Below, piece by piece: positions 4,166 to 56,273 of a DNA stretch of 56,396 bases (position 1 is its first letter; each line of letters begins with the position of its first letter). Where the stretch lies: positions 1 to 56,396 of IMG/VR virus record IMGVR_UViG_3300045988_043442. The stretch is one strand, 5' to 3'. Below the pieces are notes generated by a model, which was not told where the DNA came from, did not search any database, and worked only from the letters and a program-made list of their open reading frames with translations. Source of the stretch: a virus. A program made the position numbers and the translations under genes.

Positions 4166-4975
4166 TTACAGGGTGTATTGCTTTTTGATTCGCTTAGCCC
4201 TGTTTTCACCTTTTTCATAAGGTTTAATATAAACGACCTTGCCGCTTTGATAATGCCGGAAATGTCCGCGGACTTCCCAACAGCCGGCAAGTCGTCGCGG
4301 TTTTTTGCTTTTTATTGCGTTAGCCGTCTTATTATTCGACACTTTAAATTTTATATTATTAATTTTAATTTCTTTTACGACATTATCAACATTTTTAATA
4401 TTTTCATCTTGCGAACTTTTAGCCTTTCTTGACTTTCTTCCTTTTCTTTCAACTTCCTTAATTTCCGGGTGTTCCAAAAGCCAATTAATCCAAGTCGTAG
4501 CACGAAAAAAGAAATTTAAACATTGTCCTGCTTGCGGAACAACATTGTCTTTATAAGCTGTAAGCTCTTCAAGCTTACGCTTTTGGCGATTAAAAATCAC
4601 TAATGTTGCATCGCTGTAATCTGTTATAACCAGCTTTAAATTCCGGTTGCAAGTAACCGGAATTTCGCAAGCAATTGAACATTTCCATAGCCATTTTTTA
4701 TAAAAGTTGTCGAAAATTTCAGCTTTTAAAATCAGCATATTTTCACTCACTTCGACATCAAAAATAAAACGCTCCTGAAAGTCGTTGTAATCGGCGATAA
4801 ACACGCCATTTTTTAGAATTGGGATGTATGTTAATACATCAGAATCTTTTATATTAGGAAACCAATTGGCGGAATCTTCAAATTTAGCGGTGATACTATC
4901 AAGATTTTCGCTCTTAGCGGCTAATTCACCGCCTTTTTGCTCTCGCAATAATTGTATTTGCTTTTCTGTTCGCAT
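4166..4975 (-). CDS. Hypothetical 269-aa protein with basic C-terminal region
   Basis: ORF abuts the upstream gene with no spacer. Has a K/R-rich linker and a CWEVRGHFRHYQSGKVVYIKPY tail. No family assigned. Confidence 0.7.
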   Translation of the reverse strand: MRTEKQIQLLREQKGGELAAKSENLDSITAKFEDSANWFPNIKDSDVLTYIPILKNGVFIADYNDFQERFIFDVEVSENMLILKAEIFDNFYKKWLWKCSIACEIPVTCNRNLKLVITDYSDATLVIFNRQKRKLEELTAYKDNVVPQAGQCLNFFFRATTWINWLLEHPEIKEVERKGRKSRKAKSSQDENIKNVDNVVKEIKINNIKFKVSNNKTANAIKSKKPRRLAGCWEVRGHFRHYQSGKVVYIKPYEKGENRAKRIKKQYTL

Positions 4976-5245
4976 TTAAAAGACCTCGTTCTCTTTTTCG
5001 TACAATTTGAGAAGCTCGATAGCCGGCATCTTTACAAGTTGCTCGCCCGGTTCCAATTCAAATTCAGTATCTTTATCATCCATAATAAAATTATAGTCCG
5101 TGTAAATTGTAACTCCATAACTTTTTTTAGTAATGACTTCAACTATTAAGTTGTTGCCAAATTCCGCAATATCCTGCTTTAATTCTTTTATTAAATCTGT
5201 GCACTCAAACGACACAGACAAACCCTCGCTATTTACAAACGCCAT
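4976..5245 (-). CDS. Hypothetical 89-aa acidic protein
   Basis: ATG (MAFVNSEG) lies behind AAAGGAG. A TATAAT-containing promoter region sits upstream. Confidence 0.6.
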   Translation of the reverse strand: MAFVNSEGLSVSFECTDLIKELKQDIAEFGNNLIVEVITKKSYGVTIYTDYNFIMDDKDTEFELEPGEQLVKMPAIELLKLYEKENEVF

Positions 5246-5287
5246 GTTTTTTCTCCTTTTCAACGTTTTTTGATTTTATTATACAAC

Positions 5288-5314
5288 AAAAAAGGCTACA
5301 TTTGTAGCCTTTTT
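5288..5314 (-). terminator. Bidirectional intrinsic terminator ending the ribozyme-containing operon
   Basis: GGCTAC / GTAGCC stem flanked by an A-run and a T-run. Confidence 0.75.
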
Positions 5315-5318
5315 ATAT

Positions 5319-5669
5319 TTATTTTTCCGCAAGCTGGGTTCTTTGCTTACTTAAATATTTATCTATTGCGTCACTCGCAAAGTCTTGCAAATCACACACT
5401 TCCATGTTGCCAGCATGGTCGAGCTTGACAAAATCCGCATATTGTGGATAGCCTGTCTTGAATTTATTCAAGGCGTTTTCATCCTCGCCGAATTCTCTTA
5501 CAAAGCCAGCGAATTCGTAGCAGAAATCTGAATACTCTTCATATATCTGCTCACATTCCTCAATACCAAGGAATGTTCCATCGTCATAGTCAATGACATC
5601 ATAGTCAATATAATTTGACACGTTGCAATTAAAACCCATGTCAAATATTTTTTTAATGTTTTCATTCAT
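5319..5669 (-). CDS. Very acidic 116-aa protein
   Basis: ATG (MNENIKK) lies behind GGAGG. Rich in Asp/Glu/Tyr/Phe. Confidence 0.65.
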   Translation of the reverse strand: MNENIKKIFDMGFNCNVSNYIDYDVIDYDDGTFLGIEECEQIYEEYSDFCYEFAGFVREFGEDENALNKFKTGYPQYADFVKLDHAGNMEVCDLQDFASDAIDKYLSKQRTQLAEK

Positions 5670-5715
5670 TGATTTAACCTCCATATATTTTAATTTTATC
5701 CCTTAAAAGGAAAAA

Positions 5716-5754
5716 CCGCCGCAGGGCGTTGAACCTTGCCGACCGCCTGAACGG
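5716..5754 (-). ncRNA. GC-rich structured element, weak tRNA acceptor/T-arm mimic (or weak terminator)
   Basis: Minus strand: CCGUU(C)-AGGCGGUCGG-CAAGG-UUCAACG-CCCUG-CGGCGG-UUUUU. Same architecture as 5989..6029 but with a mismatch and wobbles. Confidence 0.35.
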
Positions 5755-5765
5755 ATGACGAAAAA

Positions 5766-5963
5766 TTAAAATCCCATTTTTTCAATAAAATATCTATCTT
5801 TATCGTTCTGATTATTGATATAATTCTTCAATGGTTCTATTTCTTCACAAATTGCGAGTTGTTTAGCTCTCCAGCTCTGACAAGTACAGTTTTTTGTTAA
5901 TGGTTCTTTCACTATATATAATTCTTTGTAGTATAGTGCAAATATAAAAATACCACCTTTCAT
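5766..5963 (-). CDS. Hypothetical 65-aa protein
   Basis: AGAGGA RBS upstream. Lies in the operon. Confidence 0.55.
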   Translation of the reverse strand: MKGGIFIFALYYKELYIVKEPLTKNCTCQSWRAKQLAICEEIEPLKNYINNQNDKDRYFIEKMGF

Positions 5964-5988
5964 TTTTTATTGTCCTCTTATGAGGTAA

Positions 5989-6029
5989 AGCAAGCCGGGG
6001 AATCGAACCCCGGAAGCGCCAACCTTGCT
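5989..6029 (-). ncRNA. tRNA-like acceptor/T-arm minihelix
   Basis: Minus strand: AGCAAG-GUUGGCGCUU-CCGGGG-UUCGAUU-CCCCGG-CUUGCU. Canonical T-loop. 6+6 bp coaxial helices. Starts 1 nt after the upstream TAA. Confidence 0.55.
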
Positions 6030-6030
6030 A

Positions 6031-6483
6031 TTATATTGCTTCTTTTTCTTTGCTAATTTCTGCCGCAATTATTCCCTGCTCAATAAAATATCGTAATGCA
6101 CTATCGCCGAAGCGTTGTATATAATATTCTGCAAGCTCCGAAGTGCTGAAAGCTTCTAAGGCTGTGCCAACATCGCTATAAATTCCGCTGCATGTTTTAG
6201 TCCTATTTGCTAGTGCTTTATCAATAGGGCTTTTCGGCTCTTCCTCTTTAACTCCTACAAGCCTATCAGCTCGCATTGTTCTAGTGTGTTCGTTTCCGCT
6301 TTCGTCGGAAATAATAACGCATTTAACGCTTTTTCCGCTCTTGGTAGGCTCTACGCTTTTGACTGTGGAAGTGTAACCAAAATTCCAAACTGTAACCATT
6401 CCCGGCTTTAATTCTGCCGCCGGGATTGCTTTTTGTGGTGTGTGTATTCCTTGTAGTTTAATTGTTTTCATAATATCAACCAT
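6031..6483 (-). CDS. Hypothetical 150-aa protein (start may be Met5 at 6471)
   Basis: ORF in the operon. No family recognised. Confidence 0.65.
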   Translation of the reverse strand: MVDIMKTIKLQGIHTPQKAIPAAELKPGMVTVWNFGYTSTVKSVEPTKSGKSVKCVIISDESGNEHTRTMRADRLVGVKEEEPKSPIDKALANRTKTCSGIYSDVGTALEAFSTSELAEYYIQRFGDSALRYFIEQGIIAAEISKEKEAI

Positions 6484-6495
6484 CCTTTCATTGTG

Positions 6496-6558
6496 TGCCC
6501 TGTCTCATCGGTGCAGGTGGGGCAGTTCCTACAGACCGCCAGAAGTGGCGGTTTCGAC
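6496..6558 (-). ncRNA. Type II hammerhead ribozyme candidate with variant core (C at position 4)
   Basis: Minus strand: GUC-GAAAC-CGCCA-CUUC-UGGCG-GUC / UGUAGG-loop-CCUGCA-CCGAUGA-GAC-A-GGGCA. Loop I UGCCC pairs with GGGCA. Confidence 0.55.
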
Positions 6559-6782
6559 TATTTCACTTGTTCTAAAATCTGTATATATATAGACGGTTTC
6601 GATTCGTCAACCTCTTTATAGACGCATCCGTTATATACTTTATTTGTTGACCCTTTGCAGGACTTGCCAAAACTCTTGCAGTTGTAGCACATTGGGTTAT
6701 ACTCCAATGCTTCAATGGCTTTTTTGCGTGCCTTGCTTCTTTCTATCTGTTCATTTGTTACAACCATTATATATTTTTCCAT
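6558..6782 (-). CDS. Hypothetical Cys-containing 74-aa protein
   Basis: ATG (MEKYIMVV) lies 8 nt behind GAGG. Confidence 0.6.
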   Translation of the reverse strand: MEKYIMVVTNEQIERSKARKKAIEALEYNPMCYNCKSFGKSCKGSTNKVYNGCVYKEVDESKPSIYIQILEQVK

Positions 6783-6805
6783 GTTCAAAACCTCGCTTTC
6801 GTTTT

Positions 6806-6871
6806 ATGGTCTGCCATCATCAGAGCCGGGAGACCATCCCACGGCTGACGCTCCAGGCGGAGCGTTTCGGC
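6806..6871 (-). ncRNA. Type II hammerhead ribozyme candidate
   Basis: Minus strand: GCC-GAAAC-GCUCC-GCCU-GGAGC-GUC / stem I hairpin-CUGAUGA-U-GGC-A-GACCAU. Loop I AUGGUC pairs with GACCAU. Confidence 0.65.
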
Positions 6872-7140
6872 TATGCTATTCTAACAACTGCATTTTTGAT
6901 ATTTGAGAAGTGAAAAAATTCCTTAGTCTCAATATTTTCAAATATTGCAGATTGTGCAAAGGTTTCGAGTGGCGTAAACGCATCACCCTTGCATGTGTAC
7001 GGGCTTTTTTCTGTATTCCAGTCAATTCCAAGTTTTCCGTTTTTCTCGTACACGCAAAAAGTCTTGTCATAGTTTCTAGTTCGTATCTCCCTATTGCTTG
7101 AATCGTATAAATGTACTTTGATTGTATCGTTTGCTTTCAT
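6871..7140 (-). CDS. Hypothetical 89-aa protein
   Basis: ORF in the operon. Its TAG stop contributes to hammerhead stem II. Confidence 0.6.
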   Translation of the reverse strand: MKANDTIKVHLYDSSNREIRTRNYDKTFCVYEKNGKLGIDWNTEKSPYTCKGDAFTPLETFAQSAIFENIETKEFFHFSNIKNAVVRIA

Positions 7141-7158
7141 ATTTAAGCCCTCTCTTTC

Positions 7159-7299
7159 TTATCTGTTTACTATTTCGTAAATCTGTGCTAATTTGCAATA
7201 TTCTTCGCATTCTGCTTGCTTCGGGCACTTGGAGCAATCATTTTCGTAAGTGCCGCAAACCTTTTCGAGTTCCTTTTCTAATTCTTTAATTCTTTCCAT
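7159..7299 (-). CDS. Hypothetical 46-aa Cys-rich protein (first cistron)
   Basis: MERIKELEKE...CSKCPKQAECEEYC. The longer track ORF reads through promoter DNA. Confidence 0.4.
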   Translation of the reverse strand: MERIKELEKELEKVCGTYENDCSKCPKQAECEEYCKLAQIYEIVNR

Positions 7300-7416
7300 A
7301 TTCTTGTACCATTTCGCCGACTGTGTTATAATCGGCTTACCTTTCTTTTTTTGATTGGTGGCGGTTCGTTCTTGGTAGGAGTGACCGCCTTTTTGTATGT
7401 CCTCCTGACAGTTATT

Positions 7417-7445
7417 ATAATAAACTAAAAACAGTTTAAAGTCAA
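7417..7445 (-). promoter_or_regulatory. Leftward sigma-70-type promoter
   Basis: Minus strand: TTGACT, 17 nt, TATTAT (overlapping a TATAAT). Confidence 0.6.
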
Positions 7446-7479
7446 TAGATAAAATAAACTTTTTTAAGATTATTTTTTG

Positions 7480-7508
7480 TTGACAAAACGAGTAAAAAAA
7501 GCTACTAT
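7480..7508 (+). promoter_or_regulatory. Rightward promoter
   Basis: TTGACA, 17 nt, TACTAT. Back-to-back with the leftward promoter. Confidence 0.6.
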
Positions 7509-7539
7509 ATATTGTATAAAACAATGAGGAGGTAACAAA

Positions 7540-7746
7540 ATGCTTGTATATAAAATTAACGTGCTGGAATCTTTAAAAGAGAGTGGATACAACAGCACAA
7601 GGATATTAAAAGAGGGGCTAATAAGTCAATCAGCAATGCAGAGGTTGCGAAAAAATGAAATGATTGGCATTAAAACTTTGGAAAAGCTGTGCGAACTTTT
7701 AGATATGCAGCCGGGAAATATCATTAAATATGTAGAAAAAGATTGA
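7540..7746 (+). CDS. Small XRE/Cro-type HTH regulator
   Basis: GAGGAGG RBS. The 68-aa pattern GYNSTRILKEGLISQSAMQRLRKNE...LEKLCELL is typical of Cro/C1 HTH. Confidence 0.65.
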   Translation: MLVYKINVLESLKESGYNSTRILKEGLISQSAMQRLRKNEMIGIKTLEKLCELLDMQPGNIIKYVEKD

Positions 7747-11097: not shown

Positions 11098-11238
11098 TGG
11101 TGTGTATGCAAGTGGGTAAGCAACGTGTAGCTGGTAACAAACATATATTTAAAAATGTTTGAGCCGTGCTTATGGGTTTAATTCTCAAAAACGTAAGGAC
11201 GTATGTCTTATGTGCGGTTCGATTCCGCACCACATCAA
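11098..11238 (+). ncRNA. Split tRNA-like RNA: acceptor plus D-arm, about 90-nt insert, then T-arm plus acceptor
   Basis: UGGUGUG pairs with CACAUCA, including a G:U. D-arm-like UGC-AAGUGGGUAA-GCA. T-arm GUGCGG-UUCGAUU-CCGCAC. Discriminator A. Confidence 0.4.
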
Positions 11239-11360
11239 TTACAACAAACTAGGTTAGCTACCGAAAAGCACTTCCGCTGTGCCTGTTTGTTGTTTTTATC
11301 AATTAAGCGGAGTATGTATCACAGGCATACATAAATAATATCAAGCGGAGGTATTCAATT

Positions 11361-25987: not shown

Positions 25988-28900
25988 GTGGAATTAGATT
26001 CATTAGAAGTCAAAATTACCGGTACTGCCATTAAAGCTATTAATTCCGTCGATAAACTGATAGATCAGCTTACAAGGCTATCAACATCACTTGCAACTGT
26101 GAATGGTTCATCACTAAGCGGTCTTGCGAGTGGCGTTAGTCAGTTAGGTTCTGCTATGCAGAATATGAACGCAGGAACGGCAGATTTTACAAGGCTTGCT
26201 AAGAACATCACAAAGATAGGTTCTGTTGATTCAGTTGCCCTAACTAACACGGCTACATCACTTCAAGCTGTCACAAAGGCAGTTGCAAGCATATCAGCTA
26301 TTCCGCAAAATGCAACACAAGTCACAGAATTTGCAAAGTCACTTGGTAAGCTAGGCAGTAAGAGTATAGAAAACGCCGTTGTAAACATTCCAAAATTGGG
26401 CAATGCTTTAAATGGCTTAATGACAACGCTATCAAGAGCACCAACAGTAAGCCAAAATGTTATTCAAATGACTAACGCATTGGCTAATCTTGCTAGTCAA
26501 GGTAGCAAGGTGGGTACTTCTTCAAACTCACTTCAAAAGTCGCTGTATGGCGTTTCTACAAGTGCTAGGACAGCAACTAGAAGTAGTTGGAACTTGGCAA
26601 GTGCAATAGGCAAGTTTTATGCCACTTATTTTATGGTAATTCGTGGCAGCAAGAAGCTTATAGAAGCAATCAAGTCAACGACAGATTACATTGAAGCGTT
26701 CAACTATCAAGCGGTTGCGTTTGGTAAAATCGGTTCAGAGTGGGATAAAGATTACGAAAAGTACGGCTACGATAATGCAACAGCATATGCAGAGAGCTTC
26801 CAAAGCAGAGTAAATGATACTCTCGGAAAGCTGTCTGGTTTAAAAGTCAATGTTCAAGGCGGCTTGCTTGAAGAAAGCGGAGCAAAGAACTTAGGACTTA
26901 ACATACAAGAGATAACACAGTATGCTTCACAGTTAGCTTCCGTTACTAACTCACTAGGACAGACAGGCGAAGCAACAACGGCAATAACAAAGTCAATGAC
27001 AATGCTTGCAGGCGATATAAGCTCACTTTTTAATGTGGACTATTCAACAGTAGCACAGAACTTACAAAGCGGCTTAATCGGTCAATCAAGGGCATTGTAT
27101 AAGTATGGTATTGATATTACTAATGCTACATTAGCGACGTATGCCTATAACTTAGGCATTTCTAAGTCTGTATCAGAAATGACACAGATGGAAAAACAGC
27201 AGTTAAGAGTGTTAGCAATATTAGACCAAAGTAAAGTATCTTGGGGCGATTTAGCTAATACGATTAACAGCCCATCAAATATGCTACGCCAGTTCAGCAA
27301 CAATATGAAAGAGGTAGGAATGGTAGCGGGACAGCTATTTATCCCAATTCTTTCAAAGGTTATGTCGATAGCAAGCGGAGTAGCTATTGCAATCAAAAGA
27401 TTATTAGTCAGCCTTGCTTCTCTAATGGGCGTTAAGATTGACTTTGAAAGCTTCGGACAAAGTGGCTATAAAGACACATCAGACGGCTTAGAAGATATTT
27501 CAGATGGCTACAAAGATGTAGCTGATTCAGCAAAGAAAGCTACATTATCCCTAATGGGATTTGATGAAATAAATAAATTACAGGACGATACAAGCTCAAA
27601 CAAGGGTTCAAGCGGCGGTGGCGGTGGTAGCACTATTGATTTGACAGACGATATTGCTAAGGCGGCGGCTGATTATGAAGCGGCGTGGAATAAAGCGTTT
27701 GCCAATATGGAAAATTCGGCAGTTGCCTGGGCTGACAGAATAGAGAAAGCACTTGAACCTGTTAAACAGATTTTTAAAGATTTTGCAGTTGGTGATTTCT
27801 TTAAGGCAGGGCAAGATACATCAAACCTAGTGGCAGGAATTTTTAATTGGTTTGCAAAGGCTATAGATGATGTTCCTTGGTTTAAAATCGGTCAGAAAAT
27901 GGGAGATTTCCTTGCAGGCATTAATTGGACTAAGGTGTTTAAATCGGCGGCTAAAGTGCTTGTACAAGGCTTAAAAGCAGCTATTGAATTATACCTAGGT
28001 ATGCTATCTAAAGCACCTATAGAAACACTTCTTATATCGCTTGTGGCAGTTCCTAAAGTGCTTGGGGCAATAGGCGGTACAAATGTAATAAAAAGCATAA
28101 CTAAAACTTACAATAAGCTTAACTCCCTAAGTAAAGCAACAGAAGATGTAGTGTTAGCGACAAAACTATCTAAAATGGGATATGACGAAACAGCGGCTAC
28201 ACTCCTTTCTTTTCATCCTAAACTTGTAAAGGTCACGACAAGCTTTAAGGACTTTGGAAGCGTAGTTAAGGATAAAAGATTATTCACGGCTTTAAACGGC
28301 GGAATAACTACTGCCAGAGATAATATGACACTATTCCAAAAAGCATTACTTGGCGGCGTATCAGCTTTTGGAGAATTTAAACTTATTAAAAGCGGATTTG
28401 ATGACGTGGCAAAAGGCAGCGACAACCTCGTAGCTTCAATTGCTAAAATTGCTGCTGGTGCGGCTATTGGTGCGGCAGGATTATACACAGCTTTCGGACC
28501 GGCGGGCTTGGCTATGGCAGGAATAACAGCCTTAATTGCAGGAATAATGTCTATTAACGACAATATTGATTTAACATCAACCGAAGTAACTAAATATTGC
28601 AATGAATATGCAAATGTACGTGATGAAGTAGATAAGACGACAAAGGAGATAGCAAGCTCTTTAGACACTATTGAGAAAGGCTGGCAAAATACAACAACCT
28701 ATGATGATATAGACGCTCTTAAAACAAAATATTTTGAATTAGCAGACCAAACTGATTTAACAACCACACAACAACAAATGCTCAAAGATGTTTCGCAAGA
28801 ACTCATAAAAAAAGTACCAGAGCTAAGCGAAGCTATTGACAGTGAAACAGGAGCATACAAAGGAACAAGAGAAGAAGTTGAAAAACTTATAGAAAAGAAA

Positions 28901-29956
28901 AAAGAAGAGTATAGACTTGAGGCATTAAGAGAAGAGTACATCCAGCTTATAAAAGACGAATATAAAGCCAAGAAGAATGTTCGTGAAATGGAAGCCGCAC
29001 TTACTGATAGTAAAGAACGCTTAAAAGAAAAGCAAGACGAATTGGCAAACGCAATGCAAAGGACACAAGGAATTGCAGAGGACTTAGATACAAGTGGCGT
29101 TGCGGCGGCAACTGACCTTGAATATCAAGTAAGGGAACTTGAAAAAGCTGTAAAATCTAACGAAGATTCTTATAACAATGCTAAAGATGAATGGATTAGA
29201 GCTACGAACGACATGGAATATTGTTCAAACGAAATGACAAGCACCATGTCAAGCAACACTCAAAAAACGCATGATGAAATGATTAATACGTTTGAAAATG
29301 TAAAAAATGAAATTGCTACAAGGCTTGGAATTATTGGCAGTGATACTGAAAACACATTTTCAAAAATGGGAAATATTGGTGCTAATGCAGGAAAATCGCT
29401 AAGTGACAATTTTGCAAATAATATTAATAATATACCATATGCGGCAGTAAGAGCTTTTCAAGGTATTGTCAATGGTGTAAATGCAGGAAGCATTGGAGAA
29501 GATACCGGAATTCAATTGATGAACTCTTTGGAAGACACAATCAATAATAATGCTTGGCGAATTAGAAACAGTTTGTCTAACAGTTTTACAAGTAAATTTA
29601 CAGGTGAAGTTTTAGATAGCGACGGCAATGTTTCTGCAAGTGCTTTTCATATTAAAATTGCACCTAAATATGCAACAGGCGGTTTCCCAGAAGATGGATT
29701 TTTCTTTGCTAACCATAATGAAATGGTTGGTAAATTCAGTAATGGTAAGACAGCGGTCGCAAATAACGAACAGATAACGCAAGGCATTAAGCAAGCTGTT
29801 ATTGAGGGCATGTCAGAAGTATTTGCTAATGCAAATATAGGACAACAAAACGGAAACATTGTTGTGCAGATTGACGGACAGGAAGTGTTTAGAACAACAC
29901 AGAGATATGCCAATCAATACACCAATATGACAGGTCAAGCGGCTTTTCCATATTAA
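25988..29956 (+). CDS. Tape measure protein
   Basis: 1322 aa, helical, Ala/Ser/Leu/Lys-rich, with hydrophobic central segments. Confidence 0.9.
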   Translation: MELDSLEVKITGTAIKAINSVDKLIDQLTRLSTSLATVNGSSLSGLASGVSQLGSAMQNMNAGTADFTRLAKNITKIGSVDSVALTNTATSLQAVTKAVASISAIPQNATQVTEFAKSLGKLGSKSIENAVVNIPKLGNALNGLMTTLSRAPTVSQNVIQMTNALANLASQGSKVGTSSNSLQKSLYGVSTSARTATRSSWNLASAIGKFYATYFMVIRGSKKLIEAIKSTTDYIEAFNYQAVAFGKIGSEWDKDYEKYGYDNATAYAESFQSRVNDTLGKLSGLKVNVQGGLLEESGAKNLGLNIQEITQYASQLASVTNSLGQTGEATTAITKSMTMLAGDISSLFNVDYSTVAQNLQSGLIGQSRALYKYGIDITNATLATYAYNLGISKSVSEMTQMEKQQLRVLAILDQSKVSWGDLANTINSPSNMLRQFSNNMKEVGMVAGQLFIPILSKVMSIASGVAIAIKRLLVSLASLMGVKIDFESFGQSGYKDTSDGLEDISDGYKDVADSAKKATLSLMGFDEINKLQDDTSSNKGSSGGGGGSTIDLTDDIAKAAADYEAAWNKAFANMENSAVAWADRIEKALEPVKQIFKDFAVGDFFKAGQDTSNLVAGIFNWFAKAIDDVPWFKIGQKMGDFLAGINWTKVFKSAAKVLVQGLKAAIELYLGMLSKAPIETLLISLVAVPKVLGAIGGTNVIKSITKTYNKLNSLSKATEDVVLATKLSKMGYDETAATLLSFHPKLVKVTTSFKDFGSVVKDKRLFTALNGGITTARDNMTLFQKALLGGVSAFGEFKLIKSGFDDVAKGSDNLVASIAKIAAGAAIGAAGLYTAFGPAGLAMAGITALIAGIMSINDNIDLTSTEVTKYCNEYANVRDEVDKTTKEIASSLDTIEKGWQNTTTYDDIDALKTKYFELADQTDLTTTQQQMLKDVSQELIKKVPELSEAIDSETGAYKGTREEVEKLIEKKKEEYRLEALREEYIQLIKDEYKAKKNVREMEAALTDSKERLKEKQDELANAMQRTQGIAEDLDTSGVAAATDLEYQVRELEKAVKSNEDSYNNAKDEWIRATNDMEYCSNEMTSTMSSNTQKTHDEMINTFENVKNEIATRLGIIGSDTENTFSKMGNIGANAGKSLSDNFANNINNIPYAAVRAFQGIVNGVNAGSIGEDTGIQLMNSLEDTINNNAWRIRNSLSNSFTSKFTGEVLDSDGNVSASAFHIKIAPKYATGGFPEDGFFFANHNEMVGKFSNGKTAVANNEQITQGIKQAVIEGMSEVFANANIGQQNGNIVVQIDGQEVFRTTQRYANQYTNMTGQAAFPY

Positions 29957-46366: not shown

Positions 46367-47121
46367 ATGTACTTAAAATGTTTAGGCTCATCGTCAGCCG
46401 GAAATTGCTATCTGCTAACTTCCAACAGTGGAGAAACACTTATCCTTGATTGTGGGATACCGATTAAGGAGATTAAAAAAGGCTTGAATTGGCACATAAG
46501 GGGGATAAAGGGTGTGATTATAAGTCACACCCACCTACCCTAGACCACAGCAAGTCATTAAACGATTTTAAATCAATGGGAATACCGATTTATGCACCAT
46601 ATATACAATACGCACAACACGAGGGCATACATCGTTATCACACGATACCATTTAGCAGCTTTAAAGTTAAGGCATTTGACCTAACAACAATAGATGGGAG
46701 CTGGACACACACAGACGCAAACGGCGAACCTTGCCCGATATATGGCTTTCTGATTACTCACAAGGAAATGGGAAGAATGCTTTATATAACCGATTGTGAA
46801 CTAATCAAATGGAGATTTAAAGACATAAACCACATTCTCTTAGGTGTGAATTATGACAAGGATTTAATTGACAGGGATAATACAGGCAAAGCTAATCACG
46901 TTTTCAGAGGTCATTTATCCATTGACACGGCTTGCGATTTTGTTAAGGCAAATTATTCAGATAGTTTGCAGAACGTCATAATGTGCCATCTATCAAGTGA
47001 AAATGCTGATAGAGATAGTTTTATCGAGAAGATGAAAAAAGTTGCTTGTGGGGCGAATGTGGACGTTGCGGTAGCAGGGAAAAGTTGGGATTTGAAAAAT
47101 CCTAGCGAATGTCCGTTTTAG
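46367..47121 (+). pseudogene. MBL-fold metallo-hydrolase interrupted by a 5-nt insertion in the HxHxDH motif
   Basis: Frame A: MYLKCLGSSSAGNCYLL...VIISHTHLP-stop at 46541. Frame B continues LDHSKSLNDF... Removing CTACC restores SHTHLDHS. Confidence 0.7.
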
Positions 47122-54601: not shown

Positions 54602-55000
54602 ATGAAGTTTTCAGAACTTACTAAGCCGGAGCTTGATGAAATAATTGAAAATGCCAATTTTACAGAAGAAGAATTAAGAATATTTAAGTTGCTTGTAGGT
54701 AACATGAGCCTAGAACAAATTAGCCAAAGACTTATGTTATCTAAAGCAACAGTTTCAAGGAGAGTTAAAGATATAAAAATCAAAATAGAAAGGGCTGACG
54801 AAATGGTTAAAACAATTCCCATATGGGAGAAAGTCACATTAACAGTTGAAGAAGCGTCTGAATATAGCAATATCGGGATTAATAGAATCAGCAATATGCT
54901 TAATGAAATTAGCTGTCCGTTTGTTCTAAAGGTGGGAAATAAGCGGCTTGTTAAGCGTAAAGAATTTGAGAAATATATAGAAAAAAGCAGGGAAATATAG
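54602..55000 (+). CDS. Sigma-70 region-4/LuxR-type HTH fused to an excisionase-type HTH
   Basis: LRIFKLLVGNMSLEQISQRLMLSKATVSRRV, then TVEEASEYSNIGINRISNML...PFVLKVGNKRLVKRKEFEKYI. Directly upstream of int. Confidence 0.55.
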   Translation: MKFSELTKPELDEIIENANFTEEELRIFKLLVGNMSLEQISQRLMLSKATVSRRVKDIKIKIERADEMVKTIPIWEKVTLTVEEASEYSNIGINRISNMLNEISCPFVLKVGNKRLVKRKEFEKYIEKSREI

Positions 55001-55085
55001 AGATATATTGAAATATAAGCTATTGTGTAGTAATATTAATTATCACGCAATAGCTCTTTATTTATTGAAAGGAGAGCTAAAGAAA

Positions 55086-56273
55086 ATGGGAAAGGATTTA
55101 AAAGGCAAAGAGTTAGGAAATGGAATCTGTCAACGAAAGAACGGAAAATATTGCGGTCGTTATGTTGATAGATTCGGCCAGAGAAAAAGCATTTATGACG
55201 ATAAACTGTCAGAATTAAGAAAGAAACTTGCAATTGCAATAGCTGATAGTCAGTCATTTACAAGTGTAAGAGATAGCATCAAGTTGGACGATTGGTTTAA
55301 GCGGTGGGTGGATGTATACAAAAAGAAAAGTGTACGCCCCAATACACTTAGGGAATACACTCACATATACACTAAGAATATATCACCTTTTTTTGGAAAT
55401 CGCAACATAAATTCCTTTGTTAAGTCGGATATTCAACAATTAATTGATATTGCTGACGATAAGGGCTATGGATATGAACGGCAAAGTAAAATTAAAGTTA
55501 TATTATCAGACATGTTTTCAAGAGCGATGGAAGATGAACTTATGCCCAGAAATCCAGCAAAAGGAGTTAGATTAAGGGCAAAAAAGGAAGTTTTCGCTAA
55601 AGCATTGACAGTTGATGAGCAAGAAGCGTTTTTTGAATGTTGTGCCGGCACATTTTACGACAATCTATTCAATATCGCTGTAAATACAGGCTTGCGACCG
55701 GGAGAACTGTTTGCCTTAACTGAAAATGATATTGATTTTGAAAATGGGCTGATAAATGTATCCAAGACGCTTGTATATCAAAAATACCTTGATGATGAAC
55801 GCAAGGAATTCCATTTAGAAGAGCCTAAAACAGAACAAAGTAACAGAAAAGTGCCTATGAACAGCTTATGCAGAAAGTATCTTGAAAGGCAGATAAGGCA
55901 GAAACATGTTATCGAAAGTAAACAACCTAAAGAGCAGAACGACTATTTATTTACAACAAAATTTAATACACCACTCAATTCAGTTTTATACAGTGCGGCG
56001 ATTGATTCTGTTGTAGATACAATAAATCTTGTCCGTTCTGTTGATGAAGAAATGGAATATTTCAGCGGACATACCTTGAGACATACATTTGCGACAAGAT
56101 GTTTTGAAGCAGGTGTTCAACCGAAAGTTGTTCAATCATATTTAGGTCATGCAACATTACAAATGACAATGGATTTATACACACATGTTATGCCACAGAA
56201 AGCAAGTGACGACATTGAAAGAATTGTTAAAAGCAAAAATAAAATTGTTGATTTTGTGAAAAACGTGGTGTAA
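55086..56273 (+). CDS. int: Tyrosine integrase
   Basis: AAAGGAGAG RBS. GLRPGEL, HTLRHTFAT and LGHATLQMTMDLYTHV catalytic motifs. Confidence 0.95.
   Translation: MGKDLKGKELGNGICQRKNGKYCGRYVDRFGQRKSIYDDKLSELRKKLAIAIADSQSFTSVRDSIKLDDWFKRWVDVYKKKSVRPNTLREYTHIYTKNISPFFGNRNINSFVKSDIQQLIDIADDKGYGYERQSKIKVILSDMFSRAMEDELMPRNPAKGVRLRAKKEVFAKALTVDEQEAFFECCAGTFYDNLFNIAVNTGLRPGELFALTENDIDFENGLINVSKTLVYQKYLDDERKEFHLEEPKTEQSNRKVPMNSLCRKYLERQIRQKHVIESKQPKEQNDYLFTTKFNTPLNSVLYSAAIDSVVDTINLVRSVDEEMEYFSGHTLRHTFATRCFEAGVQPKVVQSYLGHATLQMTMDLYTHVMPQKASDDIERIVKSKNKIVDFVKNVV

What the first reader, a model, noticed from the sequence alone, without database searches (positions are those of the whole stretch)
5989..6029. 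tRNA acceptor/T-arm minihelix placed 1 nt after a stop codon
The minus strand reads AGCAAG GUUGGCGCUU CCGGGG UUCGAUU CCCCGG CUUGCU.

The T-loop is the canonical UUCGAUU. The T-like stem (6 bp) and acceptor-like stem (6 bp) would stack to the 12-bp helix that RNase P, RNase Z and CCA-adding enzyme recognise. The D and anticodon arms are replaced by a 10-nt linker.

It is not part of a full tRNA, because the 5-prime flank is coding sequence. Sitting precisely between two cistrons, it could act as a processing signal, a 3-prime stabiliser or a decoy for tRNA-targeting enzymes.
Basis: partly seen in the sequence, partly recalled or inferred. Interest (0 to 1): 0.7.

Follow-up and report, generated by a model that had tools for sequence, protein, structure and literature searches.

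The report
tRNA-like minihelix between phage genes
A 41-base piece of RNA that copies only the top half of a tRNA sits right after a stop codon in this gut phage and in hundreds of its relatives, most likely as a "cut here / protect here" mark that lets the host's tRNA-trimming enzymes divide a multi-gene message.

Summary
Window 6029..5989 (minus strand) is a 6-bp acceptor-like stem, a 10-nt linker, and a 6-bp T stem with loop UUCGAUU. It starts 1 nt after the TAA of ORF 6031..6483. It is not a tRNA gene and matches no Rfam family.

It is not chance and not an att relic. The same element follows the homologous gene in 63 of 67 related IMG/VR phage loci. At least 119 viral stretches carry its exact 23-mer, and all those examined are minihelices. 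No tRNA gene in 185,579 species genomes carries that 23-mer.

At least five sequence families (A to E) share the architecture and the invariant GG-UUCRA-NN-CC T-loop signature. In family A, 172 of 178 copies abut a stop codon. They separate 20 unrelated upstream from 34 unrelated downstream gene families.

A small hairpin, an AU-rich spacer and a GGAGG Shine-Dalgarno follow. A type II hammerhead ribozyme occupies the equivalent post-stop position in the same operon.

Best reading, at about 0.5 confidence: a host RNase P / RNase Z punctuation and stabilising signal, like plant-mitochondrial t-elements or mascRNA. No cleavage was shown here. I rate it a new variant of a known kind.

The parts
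5989..6029 (-). Family-A tRNA-like minihelix. Acceptor 5' strand 6029..6024 (AGCAAG), linker 6023..6014 (GUUGGCGCUU), T stem 6013..6008 (CCGGGG), T loop 6007..6001 (UUCGAUU), T stem 6000..5995 (CCCCGG), acceptor 3' strand 5994..5989 (CUUGCU).
   Evidence: Sequence. The MFE equals the proposed fold. Covariance model R1 scores 69.8 bits. The element is conserved in 63 of 67 protein-anchored loci.
6028..6033 (-). Tandem in-frame stop codons TAA (6033..6031) and TAG (6030..6028) of ORF 6031..6483. The TAG overlaps the first two helix bases.
   Evidence: In family A, 172 of 178 copies have an ORF of at least 40 codons ending within 12 nt of the helix or overlapping it by 1 nt.
5986..5988 (-). Discriminator-like U (5988) and a UA trailer. 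There is no CCA and no C directly after the discriminator position.
   Evidence: Cytidines or CCA after the discriminator inhibit RNase Z (PMC7479834).
5974..5985 (-). Small hairpin CCUC-auaa-GAGG, 3 nt after the discriminator-like base. In this phage its 3' arm is also the only Shine-Dalgarno-like sequence for the ATG at 5963.
   Evidence: Relatives keep a 3-5 bp hairpin here with different sequences (CCCGGaataaCCGGG, CCCttaaGGG, CTCAaaaaTGAG).
5766..5963 (-). Downstream cistron (65 aa, no family match).
6031..6483 (-). Upstream cistron (150 aa, no family match). It was used as the anchor to fetch relatives.
5716..5754 (-). Second, degenerate minihelix (family E): CCGUU, a 10-nt linker, GCAAGG UUCAACG CCCUGC, GGCGG, with one A.C mismatch. 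A U5 run follows (5715..5711), then a small hairpin CCUUuuAAGG (5710..5701), an AU-rich spacer and GGAGG.
   Evidence: Fully paired homologues are L028:4914-4958 and L111:7134-7176.
6805..6872 (-). Type II hammerhead ribozyme in the same operon. It starts inside the stop codon TAG (6873..6871) of ORF 6871..7140, which is the same post-stop intercistronic placement as the minihelix.
   Evidence: Rfam RF02276 at 63.3 bits. Sequence. It is present on the same strand in related loci, and in L022 it lies 10 nt after a minihelix.

Best explanation
Proposed mechanism. The element is a co-transcribed tRNA-mimic punctuation mark inside a polycistronic operon of small accessory genes in a temperate phage of gut Clostridia (Lachnospiraceae). 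As RNA it forms the coaxial 12-bp acceptor/T-stem helix capped by a genuine T loop. A GG in the middle of the linker probably docks on the loop, as the D-loop G18-G19 do in a tRNA.

That is the part of a tRNA which RNase P, RNase Z and the CCA-adding enzyme recognise. The host enzymes would therefore cut the message at the helix boundaries. RNase P would cut at or next to the stop codon. RNase Z would cut after the discriminator-like U.

The upstream cistron would then end either at its stop codon or with a tRNA-like 3' cap that resists exonucleases. The downstream cistron would start 3 nt before a small hairpin. In Firmicutes that arrangement is expected to slow 5'-end-dependent decay (my own knowledge of B. 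subtilis 5' stabilisers).

Because the cassette is conserved between otherwise unrelated genes, it also serves as the homology patch where gene cassettes are shuffled between phages.

Shown here: the structure, its conservation, its placement, its strand specificity and the mosaic junction. Inferred: that cleavage occurs, which enzymes act, and the effect on stability.
For: 1. The tRNA top-half signature is conserved beyond base pairing. Across 32 distinct minihelices from five or more families the invariant columns are G52 G53 T54 T55 A58 C61 C62. C56 and R57 are nearly invariant, and positions 59 and 60 are free. Those are the conserved T-arm positions of tRNA.

2. The architecture is kept while the stem sequences differ completely between families (A AGCAAG/CTTGCT, B TCGCGT/GCGCGG, C GCTTGC/GCAAGC, D AGCGGT/GCCGCT, E). 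Ten of 12 pairs change on both sides, 99% of cells pair, and no shuffle of 500 reaches this (see the circularity caveat under evidence against).

3. An independent control: of 122 strict GGTTCRANNCC boxes outside tRNAs and outside family A, 54 have the full minihelix against 2.6 expected from shuffled flanks.

4. G.U pairs occur on this strand (GGTTGG/CCAGCC, TTCGCGT/GCGCGGA). Together with co-orientation to the flanking ORFs, this points to an RNA.

5. Within family A the stems and loop are almost invariant while the linker varies freely but keeps GG (51 of 60 linkers against 35 expected).

6. Placement: 172 of 178 family-A copies abut a stop codon. A hairpin, an AU-rich spacer, GGAGG and AUG follow.

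7. The trailer after the discriminator is U/A-rich and never CC or CCA. That is what RNase Z requires. RNase Z contacts only the acceptor stem and T arm (PMC7479834).

8. A self-cleaving type II hammerhead occupies the same post-stop position one or two genes upstream, on the same strand, in the window and its relatives. In L022 it lies 10 nt after a minihelix. Intercistronic cleavage is therefore already a feature of this operon.

9. There is precedent. Plant mitochondrial t-elements were found with the same GGTTCRANYCC box and were shown to set mRNA ends through RNase P and RNase Z, even inside reading frames (PMC1920247).
Against: There are no expression or RNA-end data, so cleavage is entirely inferred.

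Within family A only one pair shows a compensatory change. For the window's own family the support is therefore conservation rather than covariation.

The cross-family pair count used rows preselected for pairing, with linkers excised, so its 99% paired figure is partly circular.

In about 45% of family-A copies the last base of the stop codon is the first base of the helix. A precise RNase P cut would then leave a non-stop mRNA, which is costly in bacteria.

A 10-nt bulge at the junction of the two stems may weaken recognition compared with the linker-free minihelices used as model substrates.

Families B and C sit directly after a terminator-like hairpin plus U5, so they may often not be transcribed.

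The element plus its U-rich tail is also flagged as terminator-like.
Confidence: 0.5

Rival explanations
1. It is an intrinsic terminator or attenuator, or simply a 3'-end-protecting hairpin, that happens to derive from a tRNA. RNA polymerase would pause or terminate at the U-rich tract after the acceptor stem. This would set the ratio of upstream to downstream cistrons without any tRNA enzyme.
For: The terminator scan flags CCGGGG..CCCCGG plus CTTGCTTTAC. Family-A tails are usually UUUUACC. Family E, including the window's second element, is followed by U5.
Against: A terminator does not need G53, T54, T55, C56, R57, A58 and C61 to be invariant across families with unrelated stems, nor a GG-bearing linker. 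The U tract is short (3-4 U) and lies next to the weaker, AU-containing acceptor stem. Downstream genes have a Shine-Dalgarno sequence but no evident promoter in the roughly 40-nt spacer, so they depend on read-through. Families B and C already have a canonical terminator hairpin immediately upstream, which would make a second terminator redundant.
Confidence: 0.15
2. The selected function is at the DNA level. The element would be a conserved boundary at which gene cassettes are exchanged. The exchange would occur either by homologous recombination, as with PeSL cassettes of T4-type phages, or by a site-specific recombinase. In the second case the T arm would serve as a core site, with inverted repeats around a 7-bp overlap, as in integrases that target tRNA T loops.
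For: Twenty unrelated upstream and 34 unrelated downstream gene families are joined in 69 combinations across the same element. CCGGGG-TTCGATT-CCCCGG has the form of a tyrosine-recombinase core site (my own knowledge). The phage encodes a tyrosine integrase.
Against: G.T pairs on one strand only, and a fixed orientation relative to transcription. The variation in the loop follows tRNA T-loop rules (R57, free 59 and 60) rather than identity of an overlap region. Usually there is one copy of each family per genome, and different families cannot recombine with one another. The integrase is about 6 kb away with its own excisionase. Mosaicism is the expected by-product of any conserved intergenic element.
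Confidence: 0.08
3. The excised minihelix is itself the product. After RNase P and RNase Z cuts and CCA addition it would accumulate as a small tRNA-acceptor mimic that acts in trans. It could be a sponge or decoy for host enzymes or antiphage toxins that act on tRNA acceptor ends or T arms, or a competitor for tRNA-modifying or tRNA-binding proteins.
For: All three maturation determinants are present (12-bp stack, T loop, CCA-free trailer). The element lies in a hypervariable operon of small unknown genes, divergent from a Cro/C1-type regulator. That is typical of accessory or counter-defence regions. Plant t-elements and mascRNA do accumulate as stable small RNAs carrying non-templated C or CCA (PMC1920247; PMC8457004).
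Against: Nothing found here links it to any defence system. The tight coupling to stop codons and to a downstream hairpin and Shine-Dalgarno cassette is better explained by a cis role. The acceptor sequence differs completely between families, which argues against a sequence-specific target.
Confidence: 0.1
4. It is a relic of a tRNA gene fragment, either an attP/attB core or a decayed phage tRNA, with no present function.
For: The T arm resembles that of the phage's own tRNA-Ser (CGGGG TTCGATT CCCTG). Long-linker variants carry an extra hairpin that could be a vestigial arm.
Against: An att fragment would carry only the 3' part of a tRNA, yet here the 5' acceptor strand is present and pairs. 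No tRNA gene in 185,579 species genomes has the 23-mer. Six of the seven hits there are the minihelix itself in phage-like contigs. The element is conserved in 63 of 67 protein-anchored loci and in at least 119 IMG/VR stretches, with invariant stems but variable linker and flanks.
Confidence: 0.02

Closest known systems
Plant mitochondrial t-elements (tRNA-like processing signals; Forner et al. 2007, PMC1920247)
   Same: They are non-canonical tRNA-like structures recognised by the same GGTTCRANYCC T-arm box plus an acceptor-like stem. They are embedded in mRNAs next to or inside reading frames. They direct RNase P and RNase Z cuts that create mRNA 3' and 5' ends, and the excised element can persist.
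   Different: They are organellar rather than phage or bacterial. They are usually larger, with rudimentary extra arms, and occur as sporadic single loci. The phage elements are compact (about 41 nt), form several conserved families, carry a fixed downstream hairpin and Shine-Dalgarno cassette, and number hundreds of copies. Cleavage is shown for t-elements and not here.
mascRNA / menRNA tRNA-like 3' elements of MALAT1 and NEAT1 (Rfam RF01684; PMC8457004)
   Same: They have an acceptor stem and T arm with reduced other arms. RNase P cleavage sets the 3' end of the upstream RNA, and RNase Z and CCA addition follow. RF01684 is the only Rfam model that gives any hit to the window element.
   Different: They are eukaryotic nuclear lncRNAs. 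The score here is far below the gathering threshold (18.2 against 42.5 bits), so there is no homology. mascRNA keeps a D-arm-like and an anticodon-like stem.
Mitochondrial tRNA punctuation, and RNase P cleavage of bacterial polycistronic mRNAs (my own knowledge: Ojala 1981; Alifano 1994; Li and Altman 2003)
   Same: The logic is the same: tRNA-shaped structures between cistrons let tRNA endonucleases separate the cistrons.
   Different: Those systems use whole functional tRNAs, or loosely tRNA-like structures without a T-loop signature.
Acceptor/T-arm minihelix model substrates of RNase P, RNase Z, CCA-adding enzyme, TrmA and TruB (my own knowledge: McClain, Guerrier-Takada and Altman 1987; Shi, Weiner and Maizels 1998)
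   Same: They share the 12-bp coaxial stack capped by a T loop, which is the minimal recognised unit.
   Different: They are laboratory constructs without a linker. Here a natural 5-18 nt GG-containing linker bulges from the junction.
PeSL promoter/stem-loop cassettes of T4-type phages (PMC2839356, PMC4122927)
   Same: They are conserved intergenic regulatory cassettes that flank small variable genes and act as junctions for modular shuffling.
   Different: PeSLs are a terminator plus an early promoter. They have no tRNA likeness, and they occur in a different phage group and host.
Type II hammerhead ribozymes in phage operons (RF02276)
   Same: One occupies the same post-stop intercistronic position in the same operon and cuts the polycistronic RNA.
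   Different: It cleaves itself and is not enzyme-dependent. It is structurally unrelated and leaves 2',3'-cyclic phosphate and 5'-OH ends.

Membership tests
Canonical tRNA gene | A cloverleaf with D arm and anticodon arm, detectable by tRNA finders | tested here: not met
   ARAGORN finds only tRNA-Gln and tRNA-Ser elsewhere in the window. The Rfam tRNA model gives no hit here even at E<=10. Only 10 nt lie between the acceptor and T stems.
tRNA-like processing element (t-element kind) | T-arm box GGTTCRANYCC with a paired T stem | tested here: met
   GGTTCGATTCC lies inside CCGGGG/CCCCGG. The box is invariant across families.
tRNA-like processing element (t-element kind) | An acceptor-like stem stacked directly on the T stem (continuous 3' strand, about 12 bp in total) | tested here: met
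   The stems are 6 + 6 bp with no unpaired base on the 3' strand. The same geometry holds in families B to E.
tRNA-like processing element (t-element kind) | Transcript 5' and 3' ends coincide with the element boundaries (RNase P and RNase Z cleavage) | not testable with these tools
This needs RNA-end mapping or in vitro cleavage.
tRNA-like processing element (t-element kind) | A trailer compatible with RNase Z (no CC or CCA after the discriminator) | tested here: met
   The trailer is U-UA-CCUC here. It is UUUA, CUA or AUUA in 93 distinct downstream contexts. The rule comes from PMC7479834.
mascRNA-menRNA (Rfam RF01684) | A score at or above the family gathering threshold | tested here: not met
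   18.2 bits against a gathering score of 42.5, E = 0.45.
Intrinsic (Rho-independent) terminator | A G+C-rich hairpin followed immediately by a U tract | tested here: inconclusive
   The consensus scan flags it. However, only 3-4 U follow, and they follow the AU-containing acceptor stem. Family E has U5.
attP / tRNA-gene 3' fragment | Sequence identity to the 3' part of a host tRNA gene | tested here: not met
   The exact 23-mer occurs in no tRNA gene of the 185,579 species genomes scanned. ARAGORN finds no tRNA at any of the 7 hits.
attP / tRNA-gene 3' fragment | Adjacency to the integrase gene | tested here: not met
   The integrase is at 55008..56273 and the excisionase-like gene at 54602..55000. 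The element is about 6 kb away on the circular map, inside an operon.
PeSL-like mobile regulatory cassette | A conserved intergenic cassette at junctions of shuffled genes | tested here: met
   There are 69 combinations of 20 upstream and 34 downstream gene families.
PeSL-like mobile regulatory cassette | A composite of terminator stem-loop plus early promoter | tested here: not met
   No -35/-10 pair lies in the spacer after family A.

The most novel reading that the evidence does not exclude
The minihelices are excised by RNase P and RNase Z and receive CCA. They then accumulate as abundant, anticodon-less tRNA acceptor mimics that act in trans during infection or lysogeny. For example, they could soak up host antiphage effectors or enzymes that attack or modify tRNA 3' ends or T arms. 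The cis punctuation effect would be secondary.
Probability: 0.07. Interest if true: 0.85.

Novelty: new variant of a known kind. Interest (0 to 1): 0.62.

Why it matters
If RNase P and RNase Z do cut here, phages of gut Clostridia would use the tRNA punctuation logic known from mitochondria and from MALAT1, in a minimal 41-nt form, side by side with hammerhead ribozymes. That would be a second, enzyme-dependent way to break up polycistronic messages in bacteria.

It would give an annotatable, testable element for hundreds of uncultured gut phage genomes, none of whose flanking genes have a known function.

It would also provide a natural compact processing tag for multi-gene constructs in Firmicutes.

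It would explain how accessory-gene cassettes are shuffled in this phage group.

Finally, it raises the question of cross-talk between phage mRNAs and the host tRNA-maturation and tRNA-targeting defence machinery.

Tried and rejected
1. Full tRNA or known RNA family. ARAGORN and Rfam (gathering and E<=10) give nothing except a sub-threshold mascRNA hit.

2. GenBank phages. A distant blastn of 4900..7600 against INPHARED matched only the hammerhead, in two records. No deposited phage carries the minihelix.

3. One covariance model for all families. Model R1, built from family A, is too sequence-specific. With filters off it finds only the bare T loop of families B and C. MAFFT could not put the 5' acceptor strands of different families in register. 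I therefore used a pairing scan in Python and a linker-excised alignment. This makes the pair count partly circular, and the report says so.

4. Alignment A1 contained one row that I had mistyped. I discarded it and rebuilt the alignment from sequence references (A2).

5. Other copies in the window. Only one strong copy exists. The hit at 27370..27418(-), inside a large ORF, shares AGCAAGG..CTTGCT but has no T arm, so I treat it as chance.

6. A phage-encoded RNase Z. The MBL-fold hydrolase at 46489..47121 has only a sub-threshold Lactamase_B_2 match. It has no NCBIfam match and no informative PDB match. I dropped this lead.

7. Alanine-type identity (G3:U70) in the acceptor stem is absent, judged by inspection.

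8. Literature. Nine full-text searches found no description of such elements in phages (the other searches were for comparison systems). A catalogue of 10,006 unnamed candidate structured RNAs from IMG/VR (PMC10690425) may include it. Its tables are not held, so this could not be checked.

Full report
WHAT IS THERE. On the minus strand, 6029..5989 reads AGCAAG GTTGGCGCTT CCGGGG TTCGATT CCCCGG CTTGCT, exactly as reported. ORF 6031..6483(-) ends with TAA at 6033..6031. One T follows and then the helix starts. An in-frame TAG (6030..6028) overlaps the first two helix bases. After the helix come a discriminator-like U (5988), UA, a small hairpin CCUC-auaa-GAGG (5985..5974), an A-rich spacer, and the ATG of the next ORF at 5963.

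The isolated 41-mer folds into the proposed structure as its minimum-free-energy state (-16.4 kcal/mol, 60% of the ensemble). With natural flanks the MFE is the minihelix plus the small hairpin. My first fold showed an alternative only because the stretch ended inside that hairpin.

ARAGORN finds no tRNA here. Rfam finds nothing at gathering score. At E<=10 the only hit is a weak mascRNA-menRNA match (18.2 bits against 42.5), aligned over the acceptor and T arm.

WHERE IT SITS. The window is a complete temperate siphovirus-type genome. It has terminase, portal and major head genes, a RecT/SSB module, a CI-like repressor and an anti-repressor. It also has a tyrosine integrase at 55008..56273 with an excisionase-like gene next to it.

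The element lies in a minus-strand operon (about 7524 to 4166) of small ORFs without family matches. The operon is divergent from a Cro/C1-type HTH gene at 7540..7746.

In that operon Rfam finds a type II hammerhead ribozyme at 6872..6805 (63 bits). It begins inside the stop codon TAG (6873..6871) of ORF 6871..7140. This is the same immediately-post-stop placement as the minihelix.

IS IT MORE THAN CHANCE? I fetched 67 IMG/VR loci using only the protein of ORF 6031..6483. A covariance model built from 21 distinct copies scores 69.8 bits in the window. It scores 41-70 bits directly after the homologous gene in 63 of the 67 loci. This includes about 30 loci in which the gene is only about 85 aa long and the match stops at residue 78.

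Every copy I examined in the loci returned has the 5' strand [AG]GCAAG 10-18 nt upstream, so each is a minihelix and none is a full tRNA.

In 185,579 species-representative genomes the 23-mer occurs 7 times. Six are the same minihelix in phage-like contigs of Lachnospiraceae, Roseburia, Eubacteriales and Clostridium sp. CAG:510, plus one Treponema-labelled MAG contig. One is an unrelated Polyangiaceae locus. ARAGORN finds no tRNA at any of the seven.

The element is therefore not a copy of a host tRNA 3' end. The host range points to gut Clostridia.

A CLASS, NOT A SINGLE ELEMENT. A pairing-aware scan around T-loop boxes, excluding ARAGORN tRNAs, found at least five sequence families with the same architecture:
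- A: [AG]GCAAG / CTTGC[TC] with CCGGGG / CCCCGG.
- B: TCGCGT / GCGCGG with TTCCGG / CCGGGA.
- C: GCTTGC / GCAAGC with GGYTGG / CCAGCC.
- D: AGCGGT / GCCGCT with ACAGGG / CCCTGT. Its variants ACAAGG/CCTTGT and ACATGG/CCATGT are compensatory.
- E: (AT)CCGTT / GRCGG(AT) with GCAGGG / CCCTGC.

Families C and B each occur in about 100 viral stretches of the same 55-60 kb phage group.

It is followed by U5, a small hairpin CCUUuuAAGG, an AU-rich spacer and GGAGG. It is therefore the same composite cassette in a weaker state.

STRUCTURAL EVIDENCE AND ITS LIMITS. Within family A the two stems and the loop are almost invariant while the linker varies. Only one pair (A1-U72 to G1-C72) shows a change on both sides, and the shuffle controls are not impressive. 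For this family alone the argument is conservation, not covariation.

Across families I excised the linkers and aligned 32 distinct 31-nt cores. Ten of 12 pairs change on both sides, 99% of cells pair against 59% in shuffles (0 of 500), and slid registers drop to 34-51%. These rows had been selected by a scan that required pairing, so the percentage is partly circular.

The non-circular control is this. Of 122 distinct strict GGTTCRANNCC boxes outside tRNAs and outside family A, 54 have the full minihelix against 2.6 expected from shuffled flanks. With the looser heptamer the figures are 67 against 11.9. Several of the boxes that failed the test are family B or C copies with one mismatch.

The invariant columns are G52, G53, T54, T55, A58, C61 and C62. 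C56 and R57 are nearly invariant, and positions 59 and 60 are free. These are the conserved positions of a real tRNA T arm.

G.U pairs occur on this strand only. The linkers are enriched for a central GG: 51 of 60 distinct family-A linkers against 35 expected, with similar results in families B to E. This fits a D-loop-like G18-G19 contact with the T loop. That contact is an inference, not a result.

Long-linker variants carry an extra 4-bp hairpin with an RRCGG loop.

CONTEXT RULES. Of 178 family-A copies, 172 have an ORF of at least 40 codons on the same strand ending within 12 nt of the helix. In 78 of these the last base of the stop codon is the first base of the helix.

Downstream, 93 distinct contexts share one plan:
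- a discriminator-like base;
- UUA or UA;
- a 3-5 bp G+C-rich hairpin with a 4-5 nt loop, whose sequence differs between phages while the pairing is kept;
- 15-20 AU-rich nucleotides;
- GGAGG;
- the start codon.

There is never CC or CCA after the discriminator position.

The neighbours are not specific genes. Twenty unrelated upstream protein families and 34 unrelated downstream families occur in 69 combinations among 151 copies. None of the window's flanking ORFs matches Pfam or an annotated PHROG.

The hammerhead is present on the same strand in 11 of the 15 related loci scanned. In L022 it lies 10 nt after a family-A minihelix.

MOST LIKELY MECHANISM. The conserved unit is exactly the part of a tRNA that RNase P, RNase Z and the CCA-adding enzyme recognise. 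The RNase Z-tRNA structure shows contacts only with the acceptor stem and T arm. Cytidines after the discriminator inhibit RNase Z (PMC7479834), and the trailers here comply.

Plant mitochondrial t-elements were found with the same sequence box. They direct RNase P and RNase Z cuts that set mRNA ends, even inside reading frames (PMC1920247). mascRNA does the same for MALAT1 (PMC8457004).

I therefore read the element as a punctuation and stabilising signal. An RNase P cut at or next to the stop codon, an RNase Z cut after U5988, or both, would separate the cistrons. The upstream RNA could keep a tRNA-like 3' cap. The downstream RNA would begin 3 nt before a hairpin, which in Firmicutes is expected to slow 5'-end-dependent decay (my own knowledge of B. 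subtilis 5' stabilisers, not tested here).

The hammerhead in the equivalent position shows that cutting between cistrons is already used in this operon.

I put this reading at about 0.5. No RNA ends were seen. In about 45% of copies a precise RNase P cut would remove part of the stop codon.

RIVALS.
- Terminator or attenuator (0.15). The scan flags the element and family E has U5. A terminator does not explain the T-loop signature or the GG linker.
- DNA-level cassette junction (0.08). The mosaicism is real, but strand-specific wobble pairs and tRNA-like loop variation favour an RNA. Shuffling is best seen as a consequence, as with PeSLs (PMC2839356).
- Trans-acting CCA-tailed decoy (0.1). 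This is compatible with all the data, but nothing specific supports it.
- att relic (0.02). This is contradicted.

NOVELTY. No Rfam family matches, no deposited phage carries the element, and I found no paper describing it. A catalogue of 10,006 unnamed candidate structured RNAs from IMG/VR reports highly expressed candidates in Lachnospiraceae and Blautia phages and could contain it. Its tables were not available.

The kind of element, a tRNA-like processing signal, is known from organelles and eukaryotic lncRNAs. A compact, multi-family, stop-codon-abutting minihelix cassette in phage operons is a new variant of that kind.

Noticed in passing
window 6805..6872 (-): A type II hammerhead ribozyme (Rfam, 63 bits) starts inside the stop codon of ORF 6871..7140 and ends 17 nt before the next ORF. 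It is conserved on the same strand in related phages, and it is the only part of 4900..7600 that matches GenBank phages (MT835516, PP511791).
   Followed up: partly
window 11212..11308 (+): An isolated T arm (GTGCGG TTCGATT CCGCAC, 11212..11230) with the tail CACATCAA is not part of any called tRNA. The int-alpA RNA (11242..11308, 45 bits) follows 11 nt later. The same T arm plus CCACATCAA tail recurs in L070, L085, L108, L146, L158, L162, L166 and L183. In L078 and L111 int-alpA starts 3-4 nt after a complete tRNA. This suggests that int-alpA is released from a tRNA or tRNA-like 5' neighbour by RNase Z.
   Followed up: partly
L070, L078, L105, L111, L123, L148, L158, L160, L181: Nine related phage loci carry a tRNA with anticodon UUA (ochre-suppressor-like, ARAGORN 'tRNA-Stop'). 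In L078 and L111 it lies directly upstream of int-alpA. The window itself has only tRNA-Gln(UUG) and tRNA-Ser(UGA). Possible stop-codon recoding in part of this phage group was not examined.
   Followed up: no
L036 4654..4925: A G+C-rich non-coding stretch of about 270 nt lies between a family-B minihelix and the next gene. Relatives that go straight to a small hairpin lack it. It has no Rfam match at gathering score. It may be another structured RNA.
   Followed up: no
families B and C, e.g. L036 4587..4653 and L010 1155..1260: These minihelices always sit 1-4 nt after a terminator-like hairpin plus U4-5. In family C a second hairpin with a T run follows. The arrangement is unexplained. It may reflect read-through or antitermination, or RNase P regenerating a hairpin-protected 3' end.
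   Followed up: partly
upstream genes of family-A elements: Unrelated small proteins share the N-terminus MVD(I/L/F/N)M(K/R/E). This suggests a conserved translation-initiation cassette (…GGATGGTTGATNTTATG) at the 5' side of the shuffled genes, with the true start at the second ATG.
   Followed up: no
window 27370..27418 (-): AGCAAGGCTGACT…CTTGCT lies inside the 1322-aa ORF 25988..29956. It resembles the acceptor strands and the start of the linker of the element (18 bits) but has no T arm. It is probably chance.
   Followed up: partly
window 46489..47121 (+): An MBL-fold 'metal-dependent hydrolase' (phrog_392; Lactamase_B_2 below threshold) sits next to the RecT/SSB module. It belongs to the same superfamily as RNase Z, but no specific similarity was found in NCBIfam or PDB.
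   Followed up: yes
window 5667..5684 (-): ORF 5319..5684 is listed from the ATG at 5684, but that ATG is part of the ATGGAGG Shine-Dalgarno motif conserved in relatives. The likely start is the ATG at 5669..5667.
   Followed up: no
L188 (JAEDFA010000081.1, 'Treponema sp.' MAG): A 5.2-kb contig in a Treponema-labelled MAG carries a near-identical copy of the window's minihelix, hairpin and next-gene start. All other genome hits are Clostridia. This is probably a binning artefact.
   Followed up: no
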